A DNA stretch of 3,795 nt from Enterobacteria phage P-EibD. Position numbers and translations under genes: made by a program. This document shows positions 612 through 3,795 of this stretch, piece after piece. Numbering within the stretch: the first letter of the stretch is position 1; each line of letters starts with the position of its first letter. The stretch lies in sequence record AF151675.1. The stretch is one strand, 5' to 3'. The notes under the pieces were generated by a model. The model had not been told where the DNA came from. It did no database searches and saw only the letters and a list, made by a program, of their open reading frames with translations.

Positions 612-974
612 CAGATAAAAATATGGGGGAAACATTTCTTTCCCTCATGAACTATTCCTCCTGTAAATATTTCATGTTAACTGAATAGTTAATTTTTTCT
701 GATGTTGTAATTTTGTTCACAAATTACAGTGTAAGCAGATGTGAAACAGCAAGTCTGACTGGGGTAAGTTTTTTCTGATATCTGTTCCGGCGGTGTGGTC
801 GTATGCGTGAGCAGGTATGCCCAGAATAATGTAAGACAAATCCTAAATTTATAAAATTAATTTTTAAATTTATTTTCGGAATATCCTGAAAAAAGCCGTA
901 ATTAATCAGACTTTTTTATGAGTGTGAGGTGTTGCGGCTGATTTGTATACAGATAATTTAACAGGATATCCATA
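612..974 (+). promoter_or_regulatory. AT-rich intergenic control region upstream of the adhesin gene; promoter not pinpointed
   Basis: 363 bp with no convincing ORF. Hand counts give 12 G/C in 841-900 and 14 G/C in 661-720 (20-23% GC), far below the flanking coding DNA. It contains AT-only symmetric motifs at 845-873 and an AGGA (963-966) 8 nt before the ATG at 975. I could not place -35/-10 hexamers reliably by eye. Confidence 0.5.
625..646 (+). terminator. Weak candidate hairpin downstream of the first ORF
   Basis: GGGAAA (627-632), loop CATTTC, TTTCCC (639-644), extendable by G625-C646 and a G-U pair. It is not followed by a T-run, so it is at best a weak terminator. Confidence 0.2.
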
Positions 975-1052
975 ATGAGTAAAAAGTTTACAATGACACT
1001 CCTGTCATCTTCTCTGGCCGGGCTTCTGGTGATGAGTGGTGGAGTGAGTGCG
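975..1052 (+). other. Signal peptide coding segment of the adhesin (26 aa, predicted cleavage after VSA)
   Basis: Basic n-region MSKK, hydrophobic core [16 protein letters not shown], and c-region SGGVSA with small residues at -3 and -1. Confidence 0.65.
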
Positions 1053-2510
1053 CAGAATGGTACATATTCAGTGTTGCAGGATGATTCGCAGAAGAGCGGA
1101 CCGGTTAAATATGGCAGCACCTATGAAGTTGTAAAGACAGTCGATAATGGTAACTTCAGATACGAAGTAAAAGAGAAAAAAAACGACAAGAGGACACTTT
1201 TCAAATTTGATTCAGAAGGTAATGTGACCGTTAAAGGTAAGGGTATCACCCATACACTTCATGACCCGGCGCTGAAAGATTTTGCAAGGACTGCTGAGGG
1301 TAAAAAAAATGAACAAAATGGAAATACTCCACCTCACAAGCTGACAGACAGTGCTGTTCGTGGCGTGTACAACAAGGTGTATGGCCTGGAAAAAACAGAA
1401 ATTACAGGTTTCAGCGTCGAAGATGGGGAGAATGGGAAGGTTTCTCTGGGTAGCGATGCGAAAGCCTCTGGTGAGTTCTCAGTAGCTGTTGGTAACGGTG
1501 CTAGGGCTACAGAAAAAGCGTCAACAGCAGTGGGCTCATGGGCTGCTGCGGACGGTAAACAAAGTACAGCTCTGGGAGTGGGAACATATGCTTATGCAAA
1601 TGCATCTACAGCCCTGGGAAGCGTTGCATTTGTTGATAACACGGCTACATATGGCACGGCAGCAGGTAACCGAGCCAAAGTTGATAAAGATGCAACAGAA
1701 GGTACTGCGTTAGGGGCAAAGGCAACAGTAACAAATAAAAACAGTGTTGCATTAGGTGCTAATTCTGTAACCACTCGTGATAACGAAGTTTATATTGGCT
1801 ATAAAACCGGAACCGAAAGCGATAAAACATACGGCACCCGTGTTCTTGGTGGCTTAAGCGATGGTACGCGTAACAGTGATGCGGCAACTGTTGGGCAGTT
1901 AAACCGGAAAGTTGGTGGAGTTTATGATGATGTTAAAGCCCGTATAACTGTTGAGTCAGAGAAGCAGAAAAAATACACAGACCAGAAGACCAGCGAGGTT
2001 AACGAAAAAGTTGAAGCCCGCACAACGGTTGGTGTTGATTCCGACGGAAAACTTACCCGTGCAGAAGGTGCGACTAAAACTATCGCCGTCAATGACGGTC
2101 TCGTTGCTCTGTCTGGCAGAACAGACCGTATTGATTATGCAGTTGGTGCCATTGATGGCCGTGTCACCCGTAACACGCAATCCATTGAGAAAAACAGCAA
2201 GGCGATTGCAGCCAATACCCGTACGCTGCAGCAACATTCAGCACGTCTGGACAGCCAGCAGCGCCAGATTAATGAAAACCACAAGGAAATGAAGCGTGCA
2301 GCAGCACAGTCTGCGGCCCTGACAGGTCTGTTCCAGCCGTACAGTGTGGGTAAATTCAACGCCACGGCAGCGGTTGGTGGTTACAGCGACCAGCAGGCAC
2401 TGGCAGTGGGTGTGGGTTACCGCTTCAACGAGCAGACCGCAGCGAAAGCAGGCGTGGCATTCAGTGATGGCGATGCCTCCTGGAACGTTGGTGTGAACTT
2501 CGAGTTTTAA
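975..2510 (+). CDS. eibD: Eib-family immunoglobulin-binding trimeric autotransporter adhesin (YadA-like), 511 aa; paralogue assignment eibD is tentative
   Basis: 511-codon ORF. The N-terminus [29 protein letters not shown] is a typical Sec signal peptide. Residues ~155-276 carry degenerate 14-residue SxAxG repeats typical of a YadA-like head. A neck-like motif [21 protein letters not shown] is followed by a long heptad-rich stalk (aa ~311-440). The C-terminus [15 protein letters not shown]...[34 protein letters not shown] is glycine/aromatic-rich and ends in F, as in YadA-type beta-barrel anchors. The length matches what I recall for EibD (511 aa), but I cannot distinguish EibC/D/E/G without alignment. 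Confidence 0.9.
1437..1802 (+). repeat. Degenerate tandem repeats encoding the YadA-like head (about 14-residue SxAxG units)
   Basis: Successive units in the translation: [83 protein letters not shown]. Boundaries are approximate. Confidence 0.55.
2295..2510 (+). other. YadA-type C-terminal membrane anchor (translocator) coding segment
   Basis: The last ~70 residues show alternating hydrophobic/small residue beta-strand patterning and a terminal aromatic residue, consistent with the 4-strand-per-monomer anchor of trimeric autotransporters. Confidence 0.75.
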
Positions 2511-2535
2511 TTGCTGAAGGTGACATGAAGTATGA

Positions 2536-2567
2536 CGGCAGGCGCAGGACTCTGGTCTGCCGTTTTT
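2536..2567 (+). terminator. Rho-independent terminator downstream of the adhesin gene
   Basis: Stem CGGCAG (2536-2541) pairs with CTGCCG (2557-2562) around a 15-nt loop, followed directly by TTTTT (2563-2567); it lies 26 bp after the TAA stop. Confidence 0.55.
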
Positions 2568-2598
2568 CATGGGGCATAAAAAACAGGAAGGTGCTGCG

Positions 2599-3069
2599 AT
2601 GAAGGTGATTCTGGCTACCAGGAACCGCTATCTGGAGTATGGTCTGCAGGCGTTACTGAAGGGGCACAGTGTGATACTGGCGAGGGAGTTTTTCCTGCCG
2701 GAGAACCGCCGTTATATCCCGGACTTTGACGAATCCTGGCTGATAATCAGTGATGGCCTGCTGGGCAGGCTGATGCGCTGTATGTTCCAGGGGCGTCATT
2801 TTCTGCAACTGGATGCGGAGTTGCTCCGTGATGGTGAGCAGATAAGTGATGCCATACACAACGGCGTCTGGACGTATAACAGTGCTGCCCGCCCGCTGAC
2901 GATGTCAGAGATGGTGGTGATGTTCGGTTATGTCTACCGCCAGTCGAGACCCTGCCGCCTTGCCAGTGAAATGGGTATCCACACGAAGACGGTGAATACC
3001 TTTCTGTATACGGGAATGGCGAAAAACGGGCTGTATGGTGTGAGCGTCAGACGGCTTGTTGGTGCCTGA
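2599..3069 (+). CDS. LuxR-type HTH transcriptional regulator with a degenerate receiver-like N-terminus (GadE/YhiF(DctR)-like), 156 aa
   Basis: AGGAAGG at 2585-2591 sits 7 nt before the ATG at 2599. The longer ORF from ATG 2569 starts inside the upstream terminator T-tract with no SD, so 2599 is preferred. The C-terminal LTMSEMVV...LASEMGIHTKTVNTFLYTGMAKNGL fits the LuxR/FixJ HTH pattern. The N-terminal MKVILATRNRYLEYGLQALL...WLIISDG resembles the truncated receiver-like region of GadE/YhiF proteins as I recall them. Stop TGA at 3067-3069. Confidence 0.75.
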   Translation: MKVILATRNRYLEYGLQALLKGHSVILAREFFLPENRRYIPDFDESWLIISDGLLGRLMRCMFQGRHFLQLDAELLRDGEQISDAIHNGVWTYNSAARPLTMSEMVVMFGYVYRQSRPCRLASEMGIHTKTVNTFLYTGMAKNGLYGVSVRRLVGA

Positions 3070-3251
3070 TGGCGGTCCTGCCGGATGCGCAGAATCTTCT
3101 GATAGTTCAGAAGGTGCAGATGATGAATAAAGAGAGATGCCGGACAATCGGAAGAAAACGTTACACCACAGGCGCAATGTGCTTCATGCTGTTTGTGTGG
3201 CTTGGTGGTGTGCTGGCTCTTGTTGCTACAGCTGCGGTGGTAATGCAGTAA
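3069..3251 (+). CDS. Small predicted membrane protein (60 aa from ATG 3069, or 43/42 aa from ATG 3120/3123) with one C-terminal transmembrane helix
   Basis: The ATG at 3069 overlaps the regulator stop (TGATG), suggesting translational coupling. Alternatively AAGGTG (3111-3116) precedes ATG 3120/3123. A basic stretch (KERCRTIGRKRY) is followed by a ~21-residue hydrophobic segment (AMCFMLFVWLGGVLALVATAAVV). Stop TAA 3249-3251. Family not recognised. Confidence 0.4.
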   Translation: MAVLPDAQNLLIVQKVQMMNKERCRTIGRKRYTTGAMCFMLFVWLGGVLALVATAAVVMQ

Positions 3252-3275
3252 AAAAAGGGGAGCAACATGCTCCCC
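3250..3275 (-). terminator. Rho-independent terminator oriented for minus-strand transcripts (possibly bidirectional)
   Basis: Perfect 7-bp GC-rich stem GGGGAGC (3257-3263) / GCTCCCC (3269-3275) with loop AACAT. On the minus strand the hairpin is followed by seven T (complement of A 3250-3256). On the plus strand the hairpin is preceded by the A-tract and followed by GACCAGAAG, which is not U-rich. Confidence 0.6.
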
Positions 3276-3313
3276 GACCAGAAGAAAGACGTTTGATAAC
3301 AATTAGTGAGTTG

Positions 3314-3388
3314 TTACGTCTTGTCCAGAATATCATAGCAACACTCTGTTGCAGTGATACCGATCGCGATTTTAGCGAATTCCATCAT
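3314..3388 (-). CDS. Candidate small ORF (24 aa, MMEFAKIAIGITATECCYDILDKT); could instead be the body of a small RNA
   Basis: Hand translation of the minus strand gives ATG ATG at 3388-3383 preceded by GGGGA, and a TAA stop at 3316-3314. It lies 37 bp upstream (in minus-strand sense) of the minus-oriented terminator. It is very short and I found no convincing promoter. Confidence 0.2.
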   Translation of the reverse strand: MMEFAKIAIGITATECCYDILDKT

Positions 3389-3431
3389 AAATCCCCTGAT
3401 TTTTAAGCCTGAAGCAGTCAAAGGAATTTCT

Positions 3432-3795
3432 ATGCCCTATATCGATATCACCACGATGCGTGGGATGATGCCGCGCGTTGTGACATCCATGCTGCCCGAG
3501 CATTCCGCTGTACTGGCGGAGGACTGCCATTTCCGGTTTGGTGTTATTACACCAGAACGTCAGATATCCGGGGTTGAGAAAACATTCACAATTAAGCCAA
3601 AAACAATTTTTCATTACCGTGACGATTTCTGGTTTGCATGGCCGGATGTGGTGGATGTGATCCGCAGTCCGATCGCTCAGGACCCCCACGGGCGTATTTA
3701 CTACACTGACGGGCGTTTTCCTAAAGTGACGGATGCGACCATTGCCACAAAAGGGGACGGGAATCACCCGACATCATCGTATCGTCTTGGGATCC
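3432..3795 (+). CDS. Hypothetical protein, 5' partial (first 121 codons; continues beyond the window end)
   Basis: AGGA at 3422-3425 sits 6 nt before the ATG at 3432. The frame stays open to the window end (MPYIDITTMRGMMPRVVTSMLPEHSAVLAEDCHFRFGVITPERQISGVEKTFTIKPKTIFHYRDDFWFAWPDVVDVIRSPIAQDPHGRIYYTDGRFPKVTDATIATKGDGNHPTSSYRLGI), with protein-like composition and no signal peptide. The antisense 131-aa ORF (3372-3767) is Cys/His/Arg/Trp-rich and looks spurious. Family not recognised. Confidence 0.6.
   Translation, partial: MPYIDITTMRGMMPRVVTSMLPEHSAVLAEDCHFRFGVITPERQISGVEKTFTIKPKTIFHYRDDFWFAWPDVVDVIRSPIAQDPHGRIYYTDGRFPKVTDATIATKGDGNHPTSSYRLGI

What the first reader, a model, noticed from the sequence alone, without database searches (positions are those of the whole stretch)
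3250..3388. Minus-strand terminator with a possible convergent 24-aa ORF or small RNA
The hairpin at 3257-3275 is canonical only for the minus strand (stem followed by seven U), so some transcript must arrive from the right. The nearest candidate is a 24-codon ORF (3388 to 3314) with GGGGA just upstream of its ATG ATG. The room for a promoter is tiny and would overlap the start of the next + strand gene, so the transcript may instead be an sRNA or an antisense RNA originating inside or beyond that gene. Either way it is an unannotated convergent transcription unit.
Basis: seen in the sequence. Interest (0 to 1): 0.45.

Follow-up and report, generated by a model that had tools for sequence, protein, structure and literature searches.

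The report
Orphan terminator from a lost gene
The hairpin is a real, conserved minus-strand transcription terminator, but here it and the about 100 bases beside it are only the leftover tail of a deleted convergent ykgJ-type gene, and the 24-codon reading frame is an accident, so the finding is ordinary.

Summary
The window is the eibD cargo locus of a 933W-like E. coli prophage. Its gene order is tail-fibre assembly gene, eibD, ORF-156, a 43-aa membrane peptide, then an internal virion protein gene.

GGGGAGC-AACAT-GCTCCCC (3257-3275) followed by T7 on the minus strand is a canonical intrinsic terminator, and no T-tract follows it on the plus strand.

The same hairpin and T-tract recur in all seven distinct alleles I folded. 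The stem is kept and the loops differ. In relatives it sits 12 nt after a convergent dinI-like gene or about 96-118 nt after a convergent YkgJ-family gene.

Window 3149-3371 is collinear with one such locus. The homology stops exactly at the ykgJ stop codon (window 3372-3374). So 3276-3374 is the old ykgJ 3'UTR. Its coding sequence and promoter are gone, and the leader of the next plus-strand gene takes their place.

The 24-codon ORF lies mostly inside that former 3'UTR:
- It is cut to 18 codons in 933W, has a nonsense mutation in one allele and is split by an IS66-type element in another.
- It shows 6 replacement or nonsense changes against 2 silent ones.
- It has no homologue outside this locus.

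No promoter, Rfam match or Hfq-bound sRNA was found. Verdict: a vestigial terminator plus gene relic. A live small RNA is not excluded but has no support.

The parts
3120..3251 (+). Gene for a 43-aa tail-anchored membrane peptide. It was deposited as a 60-aa ORF starting at 3069 and is the last gene of the eibD / ORF-156 / small-peptide cassette. Its stop codon TAA (3249-3251) forms part of the A-run.
   Evidence: PHROG 9340 matches residues 18-60, E 1e-29. There are 32 homologues, and the 15 aligned share the invariant motif YT.GAMCFMLFVWLGG. One source names it 'oRF-60D'. It is found on at least 1000 contigs.
3250..3256 (-). T7 (U7) tract of the minus-strand intrinsic terminator.
   Evidence: At least 5 T after the stem is kept in every allele: TTTTTTT, TTTTTTC, TTTTTAT, TTTCTTT and (A/G)TTTTTT.
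3257..3275 (-). GC-rich terminator hairpin: GGGGAGC(A)-loop-(T)GCTCCCC.
   Evidence: -15.4 kcal/mol, z -4.2. Seven distinct alleles fold at -11.5 to -17.7 kcal/mol. The GGGGAG/CTCCCC core is invariant, the seventh pair varies (C-G, U-A or U.G) and the loops are unrelated.
3276..3374 (-). Relic of the 3'UTR of a deleted convergent YkgJ-family gene, including its old stop codon TAA (3374->3372 on the minus strand).
   Evidence: A search of E. coli genomes places window 3276-3371 next to a YkgJ-family gene (E 1e-7). Local blastn shows window 3149-3371 collinear with L096 2874-3097 (E 3e-35), ending at the ykgJ stop codon. The same 3'UTR and terminator follow intact ykgJ genes that have other left-hand neighbours (L098/L102).
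3314..3388 (-). 24-codon ORF (MMEFAKIAIGITATECCYDILDKT). It is a fortuitous ORF: codons 1-4 lie right of the deletion breakpoint, and codon 5 onwards lies in the former 3'UTR, out of frame with the old stop codon.
   Evidence: It is 18 codons long in the 933W allele and has E15stop in L019. An IS66-family element is inserted after codon 5 in PPwrbA_EC3734. tblastn finds it only at this locus. The 35-aa TTG-start version was called once among about 15 billion proteins, and the 24-aa form never.
3332..3340 (-). Extended -10-like element TGcTATGAT. It is the best promoter-like score on the minus strand but is not significant and is absent from the 933W allele. It is listed only as the candidate start of a hypothetical ~75-nt RNA.
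   Evidence: My position-weight-matrix scan gives 10.5 bits; 12 sites of at least 9 bits occur in the 7590 positions of the window.
3375..3431 (+). Leader of the next plus-strand late gene, with the Shine-Dalgarno sequence AAGGA at 3421-3425.
   Evidence: It is 100% identical between the window and 933W alleles. Homology with the ykgJ loci stops at 3371-3375.
3432..3795 (+). 5' part of the 541-aa internal virion protein gene (933W L0124, Sakai ECs_1232).
   Evidence: PHROG 511, E 2e-279. PGAP starts the gene at this ATG. Homologues in Pectobacterium genomes and in unassigned viral contigs, 63-67% identical, align from residue 1 of this ATG.

Best explanation
The hairpin and T7 tract form a genuine Rho-independent terminator that acts on minus-strand transcription only. 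It marks the junction between two convergent units found in many E. coli prophages. On the left is the eib / ORF-156 / 43-aa-peptide cargo cassette (plus strand). On the right is a minus-strand cargo gene, either dinI-like or YkgJ-family, whose transcript the hairpin ends.

In this window (prophage P-EibD, 933W-like) the right-hand gene was a ykgJ-type gene that has been deleted. Only its stop codon, its ~96-nt 3'UTR (3276-3374) and its terminator remain. They now abut the leader of the internal virion protein gene.

Nothing obvious now feeds the terminator. At most it passively stops stray antisense transcription from the late genes before it enters the eib cassette. The 24-codon ORF is an accidental reading frame across the breakpoint and the former 3'UTR.

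Shown: the terminator anatomy and its conservation; the homology to ykgJ 3' ends that stops at the stop codon; the non-conservation of the ORF; the absence of a consensus promoter.
Inferred: that the terminator is currently idle.
For: - Canonical anatomy on the minus strand only.
- The hairpin follows the 43-aa gene in every context, with a conserved stem, variable loops, a conserved upstream A-run and unrelated, never T-rich sequence after it.
- In relatives a dinI-like gene stops 12 nt from the hairpin. A YkgJ-family gene stops about 96-118 nt from it.
- Window 3149-3371 is collinear with L096 2874-3097 (E 3e-35), and the homology ends at the ykgJ stop codon.
- Intact ykgJ genes with a different left-hand neighbour carry the same 3'UTR and a GGGGAGC...GCTCCC-T7 terminator.
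- Other alleles upstream of the same virion gene still hold YkgJ residues 77-105 on the minus strand (83% identity, E 1e-14), with a minus-strand terminator of their own.
- The sister prophage P-EibE of the same strain has the cassette, the hairpin, a stretch resembling the 3' end of the dinI-like gene and a ykgJ C-terminus.
- ORF decay is documented.
- No sigma-70 promoter was found on either strand of 2400-3795. The best weight-matrix hit is not significant.
- No Rfam match and no EcOnc sRNA at Sakai 1,287.5-1,287.8 kb.
Against: - No expression data for this allele could be examined, so a weak or non-sigma-70 promoter cannot be excluded.
- Three -10-like hexamers lie on the minus strand between 3389 and 3332.
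- In 36 kb of the 933W late region my scan lists seven minus-oriented terminator-like sites. Of the three strong ones (at least five T in the tail), one lies where AsxR maps, about 282 bp 3' of stx2AB, one belongs to a two-way terminator, and the third is this one. So such a terminator can mark a live sRNA.
- The hairpin and T-tract stay intact in the 933W allele, although 33 nt on one side and 70 nt on the other have diverged by about 20-40%. This could mean continued selection rather than mere survival.
Confidence: 0.72

Rival explanations
1. A live small RNA. The relic 3'UTR plus terminator is still transcribed from a promoter inside or just right of it. Candidates are TGcTATGAT at 3340->3332, TAAAAT at 3374->3369 and TATGAT at 3389->3384. 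The product would be a ~75-130-nt convergent RNA with an Hfq-type 3' end. It would be antisense to the read-through mRNA of the eib cassette, or act in trans as AsxR and AgvB do.
For: - The strong terminator with U7 is preceded by a U/C-rich single-stranded stretch.
- The best minus-strand promoter score lies at a sensible distance from it.
- There is a precedent for convergent sRNAs beside cargo genes in the same phages, and AsxR's site has the same kind of lone minus-oriented terminator.
- The minus strand of 3240-3440 folds better than shuffles (z -3.7).
Against: - The consensus scan finds no promoter, and the weight-matrix hit is expected by chance about once per 600 nt.
- The TGcTATGAT element is missing in the 933W allele, and the internal hairpins are not kept between alleles.
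- There is no Rfam match at E <= 10 and no similarity to AsxR.
- The Hfq-CRAC table for Sakai, which carries the 933W allele, lists no peak here.
- The sequence is explained by descent from a 3'UTR.
Confidence: 0.12
2. A translated 24-aa micro-protein, MMEFAKIAIGITATECCYDILDKT, expressed from the GGGGA ribosome-binding site.
For: The ORF is intact, with an SD-like GGGGA 6 nt before the second ATG. One genome annotation once called the 35-aa TTG-start version.
Against: - Among near-identical alleles there are 5 replacement changes, 1 nonsense change and only 2 silent ones.
- The C-terminal half is replaced and the ORF shortened to 18 aa in 933W.
- An IS66-family insertion follows codon 5 in one phage.
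- tblastn finds no homologue outside the locus, and Pfam and PHROG give no hit.
- The supplementary files of the Sakai study of small intergenic genes that are held as text contain neither these coordinates nor the peptide.
- Most of the ORF derives from a 3'UTR, and no promoter was found.
Confidence: 0.03
3. A plus-strand role. The hairpin, 5-6 nt after the stop codon of the 43-aa gene, protects the 3' end of the eib-cassette mRNA from exonucleases after Rho-dependent termination or processing. On this view the A-run is incidental.
For: The hairpin travels with the cassette into contexts that have no convergent gene (window, 933W, L077). It always lies directly after the stop codon. The cassette has no plus-strand intrinsic terminator after its last gene.
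Against: - The A-run, which is needed only for minus-strand termination, is kept in every allele, while the plus-strand downstream sequence is never T-rich.
- The same 3'UTR and a hairpin of the same type (core GGGAGC/GCTCCC) follow ykgJ genes where the cassette is absent.
- A stabilising role would not need a canonical terminator geometry.
- This role could co-exist with the main explanation.
Confidence: 0.1

Closest known systems
Rho-independent terminators placed between convergent genes
   Same: GC-rich 7-9-bp stem, 3-8-nt loop and a U-tract. In relatives it sits between the convergent 43-aa gene and a dinI-like or ykgJ-type gene and ends the minus-strand one.
   Different: It works in one direction only, because no U-tract follows on the plus strand. 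In this window the gene it served is gone, so it is an orphan.
Decayed prophage cargo genes (pseudogene relics at mosaic junctions of lambdoid phages)
   Same: Homology to intact ykgJ loci ends abruptly at a breakpoint. Sister alleles hold longer or shorter remnants, and 933W itself carries a decayed eib cassette.
   Different: What survives here is purely non-coding (stop codon, 3'UTR and terminator). It therefore looks like a small gene or sRNA rather than an obvious pseudogene.
AsxR/AgvB anti-sRNAs of Stx phages (Tree et al. 2014, PMC4104026)
   Same: Minus-strand orientation relative to the late operon, a position beside a cargo insertion, and a Rho-independent terminator.
   Different: There is no sequence similarity, no Rfam hit, no Hfq-CRAC peak listed at the Sakai position and no recognisable promoter.
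3'UTR-derived sRNAs such as DapZ, MicL and CpxQ (recalled from my own knowledge)
   Same: The surviving segment is a 3'UTR with its terminator, which is the raw material of that class.
   Different: No internal promoter or processing site is conserved, and the parent mRNA no longer exists here.
Type I toxin-antitoxin pairs with convergent 3' overlap, such as txpA/RatA and bsrG/SR4 (recalled from my own knowledge)
   Same: A small hydrophobic peptide gene faces a possible convergent RNA that shares the hairpin.
   Different: The sequence to the right of the hairpin is unrelated in several contexts of the peptide gene. No conserved antisense partner therefore exists.

Membership tests
Rho-independent (intrinsic) terminator, minus strand | GC-rich stem of at least 5 bp with a 3-8-nt loop | tested here: met
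   8 pairs, 6 of them G-C, loop of 3 nt; -15.4 kcal/mol, z -4.2.
Rho-independent (intrinsic) terminator, minus strand | U-tract immediately 3' of the stem | tested here: met
   U7 on the minus strand and none on the plus strand. The tract is kept in all alleles.
Rho-independent (intrinsic) terminator, minus strand | Lies downstream of a gene on the same strand | tested here: inconclusive
   Met in relatives (dinI-like gene 12 nt away, ykgJ-type gene about 96-118 nt away). In this window only the old stop codon and 3'UTR remain.
Rho-independent (intrinsic) terminator, minus strand | RNA 3' end mapped at the U-tract | not testable with these tools
YkgJ-family gene relic | Collinear homology to the 3' flank of intact ykgJ genes, ending at a breakpoint | tested here: met
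   Window 3149-3371 matches L096 2874-3097, E 3e-35, ending at the stop codon. The 3'UTR and terminator also align with L098 and L079.
YkgJ-family gene relic | Residual similarity to the YkgJ protein | tested here: not met
   tblastn gives nothing significant in the window (best E 1.7). It is met in the sister alleles L032/L035 (E 1e-14). The relic here is non-coding only.
Protein-coding small ORF | Reading frame kept across alleles, with an excess of silent changes | tested here: not met
   18 codons in 933W; nonsense mutation in L019; IS insertion in PPwrbA_EC3734; 6 replacement or nonsense changes against 2 silent ones.
Protein-coding small ORF | Homologues elsewhere or a family assignment | tested here: not met
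   tblastn hits only this locus. No Pfam or PHROG family. It is a singleton cluster.
Protein-coding small ORF | Ribosome-binding site at a suitable distance | tested here: met
   GGGGA lies 6 nt before the second ATG. On its own this is weak evidence.
Prophage convergent Hfq-dependent sRNA (AsxR/AgvB type) | Own promoter upstream of the terminator | tested here: not met
   No consensus site. The best weight-matrix hit is within chance and absent from 933W.
Prophage convergent Hfq-dependent sRNA (AsxR/AgvB type) | Sequence or structure match to the family | tested here: not met
   Rfam gives nothing at E <= 10 in 3240-3440. blastn against the AsxR locus finds only 7-8-nt words.
Prophage convergent Hfq-dependent sRNA (AsxR/AgvB type) | Hfq binding or detected transcript | tested here: not met
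   Table S2 of PMC4104026 has no entry near Sakai 1,287,531-1,287,751. The nearest is EcOnc53 at 1,292,386. That table reports only peaks more than 100 nt from, or antisense to, a coding region, and only the growth conditions used.
Type I toxin-antitoxin (43-aa peptide plus convergent antisense RNA) | Conserved linkage of the peptide gene with one antisense RNA gene | tested here: not met
   The sequence right of the hairpin is unrelated in the L0124, ykgJ, dinI and L077 contexts.

The most novel reading that the evidence does not exclude
The orphaned ykgJ 3'UTR and terminator have been taken over as a small convergent RNA of about 75-130 nt. It would start at one of the -10-like elements between 3389 and 3332 and be carried by P-EibD and 933W-type Stx phages. 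It could act as antisense to read-through transcripts from the eib cassette, or in trans through its U-rich Hfq-type 3' end.
Probability: 0.1. Interest if true: 0.35.

Novelty: new member of a known kind. Interest (0 to 1): 0.1.

Why it matters
Mostly as a caution. A perfect terminator facing the wrong way, with a small ORF in front of it, looks like a hidden gene or sRNA. Comparison with relatives shows it is the surviving tail of a deleted cargo gene.

It also helps annotation. The terminator and the relic are unannotated. The long GTG start given to the downstream virion gene in several Stx-phage records runs through the relic. The 43-aa peptide gene is real and always accompanies eib genes.

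If the residual sRNA reading were true, it would add one more convergent phage sRNA to Stx phages. That would be of modest interest.

Tried and rejected
- Rfam over the whole window at E <= 10: nothing in 3240-3440.
- Conserved RNA structure in the body 3276-3345: the window and 933W alleles fold differently, with no compensating changes.
- AsxR-like family: no similarity.
- Type I toxin-antitoxin with the 43-aa peptide as toxin: the right-hand sequence is unrelated between contexts, and there are no PADLOC, NCBIfam or Pfam hits.
- The hairpin as the ordinary terminator of prophage dinI-like genes: in genomes without the cassette the dinI-like matches start at that gene's stop codon, not at the hairpin.
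- Programmed -1 frameshift on A AAA AAG plus hairpin: the heptamer lies after the stop codon, and its G is not conserved.
- An N-terminal extension of the virion protein from GTG 3354, as annotated in 933W, phage 86 and 24B: the more distant homologues (63-67% identical) start at the ATG at 3432. Upstream of it they share no similarity with the window and carry a plus-strand terminator 51 nt before the start.
- Literature: no entry for this region in Tree 2014 Table S2 or in the held supplements of Hucker 2017, and nothing found for ECs1231, L0123/L0124 or vb_24B_38/39.
- A formal pair count on the hairpin alignment was dropped, because MAFFT mis-registered the short stems. Each allele was folded separately instead.
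- A search for a full-length ykgJ gene directly beside the virion gene: not found among 43 viral loci.

Full report
**What the window is.**
The 511-aa YadA-like protein (975-2510) is EibD. It matches PDB 2xqh, 'immunoglobulin-binding protein EibD', at E 2e-154. One source names the 60-aa ORF 'oRF-60D', and the phage 24B record mentions 'phage P-EibD'.

The gene order on the plus strand is:
- a DUF4376 tail-fibre assembly gene (24-611);
- eibD;
- ORF-156 (2599-3069, PHROG 6585, no known function);
- a small membrane peptide gene (3069/3120-3251);
- the 5' end of a 541-aa internal virion protein gene (from 3432, PHROG 511).

Positions 3218-3795 are 93% identical to phage 933W between L0123 and L0124, and to Sakai prophage Sp5.

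**Checking the observation.**
All the coordinates are right.
- GGGGAGC/GCTCCCC at 3257-3275 is followed by U7 on the minus strand. It is the best terminator-like site in 2400-3795 (6 sites found against 1.1 expected).
- It folds at -15.4 kcal/mol, z -4.2.
- GACCAGAAG follows on the plus strand, so only the minus strand has a canonical terminator.
- The 24-codon ORF (3388->3314) and the GGGGA before it exist. ORFs of this size are common here, with 53 of at least 20 codons in the window.

**The ORF is not a gene.**
I collected 66 related loci through the downstream virion gene and compared the upstream 260 nt.
- Within the window-type alleles the ORF carries 5 replacement changes (M2V, A13T, D22G, K23E, T24K), 1 nonsense change (E15stop in L019) and 2 silent changes. 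This is roughly the neutral ratio.
- In the 933W allele the second half is replaced, and the frame stops after 18 codons.
- In phage PPwrbA_EC3734 an IS66-family element sits just after codon 5.
- tblastn against 50,697 phage records finds the peptide only at this locus. Pfam and PHROG find nothing.
- Among about 15 billion predicted proteins, the 35-aa TTG-start form was called once and the 24-aa form never.
- No annotated record shows a minus-strand gene here.

**No sign of a promoter or a known RNA.**
- The consensus scan finds no sigma-70 site on either strand of 2400-3795.
- My weight-matrix scan gives its best minus-strand hit at TGcTATGAT (3340->3332). The score is 10.5 bits, and the window holds 12 sites of at least 9 bits in 7590 positions, so about 0.2 would be expected in a region of this size. 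The 933W allele lacks the element.
- Rfam gives nothing.
- The Hfq-CRAC table for Sakai lists Sp5 sRNAs at 1,255.6, 1,266.9, 1,268.4-1,268.5, 1,292.4, 1,301.4 and 1,308.4-1,308.7 kb. None is near 1,287.5-1,287.8 kb.
- Predicted hairpins in the body of the putative RNA are not kept between alleles.

**Where the hairpin belongs.**
The small plus-strand gene that ends at the A-run is real. PHROG 9340 covers residues 18-60. Thirty-two homologues were found, and the 15 I aligned share the invariant motif YT.GAMCFMLFVWLGG.

Looking up its relatives showed that eib, ORF-156/157 and the peptide gene form a cassette with several different right-hand neighbours:
- the same virion gene, but behind an unrelated 206-nt spacer (L077);
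- a convergent CxxCxxCC/YkgJ-family gene followed by host genes (L079-81);
- a convergent dinI-like gene followed by prfC, smpB or a sensor kinase gene (L082-91).

In every case the stop codon is followed by an A-run and a GGGGAG...CTCCCC hairpin. The loops are different, the seventh pair is C-G, T-A or T.G, and the sequence after the hairpin is unrelated and never T-rich. All seven distinct alleles I folded give -11.5 to -17.7 kcal/mol.

The dinI-like gene stops 12 nt from the hairpin. The ykgJ-type gene stops about 96-118 nt from it. So in those contexts the hairpin is the terminator of a real convergent gene. In genomes without the cassette, the dinI-like matches start at that gene's stop codon and do not include the hairpin.

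**The segment between the hairpin and the next gene.**
- A sensitive search of E. coli genomes with 3276-3431 gave one out-of-context hit beside a YkgJ-family gene (E 1e-7; annotation).
- Local alignment shows window 3149-3371 collinear with L096 2874-3097 (E 3e-35). The match covers the peptide gene, the hairpin and a 96-nt spacer. It ends exactly at the ykgJ stop codon (L096 3096-3098 = window 3372-3374).
- Intact ykgJ genes that have a different left-hand neighbour (L098/L102) carry the same 3'UTR and a GGGGAGC...GCTCCC-T7 terminator.
- So 3276-3374 is the 3'UTR of a ykgJ-type gene, with the old stop codon. The coding sequence and promoter are gone. tblastn with YkgJ finds nothing significant in the window.
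- Other alleles upstream of the same virion gene (L032/L035) still encode YkgJ residues 77-105 on the minus strand and have a minus-strand terminator of their own.
- The sister prophage P-EibE of strain ECOR-9 shows the cassette, the hairpin, a stretch resembling the 3' end of the dinI-like gene, and a ykgJ C-terminus.
- ykgJ-like genes are common, and often decayed, convergent partners of tail-fibre assembly genes at prophage ends.

**Mechanism and how sure I am.**
The hairpin is a one-way terminator that served a convergent cargo gene. In this window it is an orphan and can only stop stray antisense transcription. I put this at 0.72.

Two observations keep a live small RNA open, at about 0.12:
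- In 36 kb of the 933W late region my scan lists seven minus-oriented terminator-like sites. Of the three strong ones, one lies where AsxR maps, about 282 bp 3' of stx2AB.
- The hairpin and T-tract stay intact in 933W, although the flanks have diverged.

A plus-strand role in protecting the mRNA 3' end (about 0.1) could co-exist with the main explanation. A translated peptide is very unlikely (0.03).

**Novelty and verdict.**
This is an ordinary intrinsic terminator plus a non-coding gene relic, neither of which is annotated. Its inference of a convergent unit is true of the ancestors and relatives of this locus, but is not supported for the window itself. Interest is low (0.1).

Noticed in passing
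window 975-3251; loci L077-L091, L095, L096, L097: eib, ORF-156/157 and a 40-60-aa tail-anchored membrane peptide (invariant YT.GAMCFMLFVWLGG) always travel together as a three-gene cassette, with at least four different right-hand neighbours. The two small partners have no Pfam, NCBIfam or PADLOC family. The deposited 60-aa start of the peptide is probably too long: PHROG 9340 is 43 aa, which fits the ATG at 3120.
   Followed up: partly
window 619-650 (hairpin 627-644, minus strand): A second minus-oriented terminator-like hairpin lies directly after the tail-fibre assembly gene (CATGAGGGAAAGAAATGTTTCCCCCAT ATTTTTAT). It is homologous to the hairpin that ends a convergent ykgJ gene in loci with a tail-fibre assembly gene and ykgJ but no eib cassette (L107/L109). 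The eib cassette therefore seems to have been inserted between two such junctions. This hairpin explains the weak Rfam STnc540 hit at 572-693.
   Followed up: partly
window 2544-2568: A plus-strand intrinsic terminator-like site (GCAGGACTCTGGTCTGC CGTTTTTCAT) lies 34 nt after the eibD stop codon. ORF-156 and the peptide gene are then transcribed by read-through or from a promoter of their own. The sister record AF151676 annotates a stem_loop 25 nt after the eibE stop codon, the corresponding place.
   Followed up: no
L002 4638-5080 (933W 40220-40660): The 933W segment from L0123 to L0124 is a decayed eib cassette. L0123 is a truncated ORF-156 homologue. It is followed by a fragment of the ORF-156 C-terminus and only the last 11 codons of the peptide gene. 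eib itself is absent. The short plus-strand ORFs annotated across the hairpin in some Stx-phage records look spurious.
   Followed up: partly
window 3354-3432; 933W L0124, phage 86 gp25, 24B vb_24B_39: The start of the internal virion protein gene is annotated inconsistently. Older phage records use GTG at 3354, giving 566-567 aa. PGAP uses ATG at 3432, giving 541 aa. The 26-codon extension is the antisense of the ykgJ 3'UTR relic and is absent from the more distant homologues, so the ATG at 3432 is the likely start.
   Followed up: yes
L071 about 2630-5130 (phage PPwrbA_EC3734): An IS66-family element (523-aa transposase plus accessory ORFs) is inserted within a few bases of the position where homology to ykgJ loci ends in the window (about 3375).
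   Followed up: partly
L047/L037/L053, 90-110 nt upstream of the virion gene start: An 18-bp palindrome, CAGATTTCnnGAAATCTG, lies upstream of the virion gene in the other alleles. It turned out to be the last codons (KYRFPEI) plus the stop codon of the ykgJ remnant, not an obvious operator.
   Followed up: partly
NC_002695.2 1,287,460-1,287,755 (locus L075): Locus tag ECs_1231 is missing between ECs_1230 and ECs_1232 in the current Sakai annotation. An ORF once called in this intergenic region appears to have been withdrawn. No paper in the library mentions it.
   Followed up: partly
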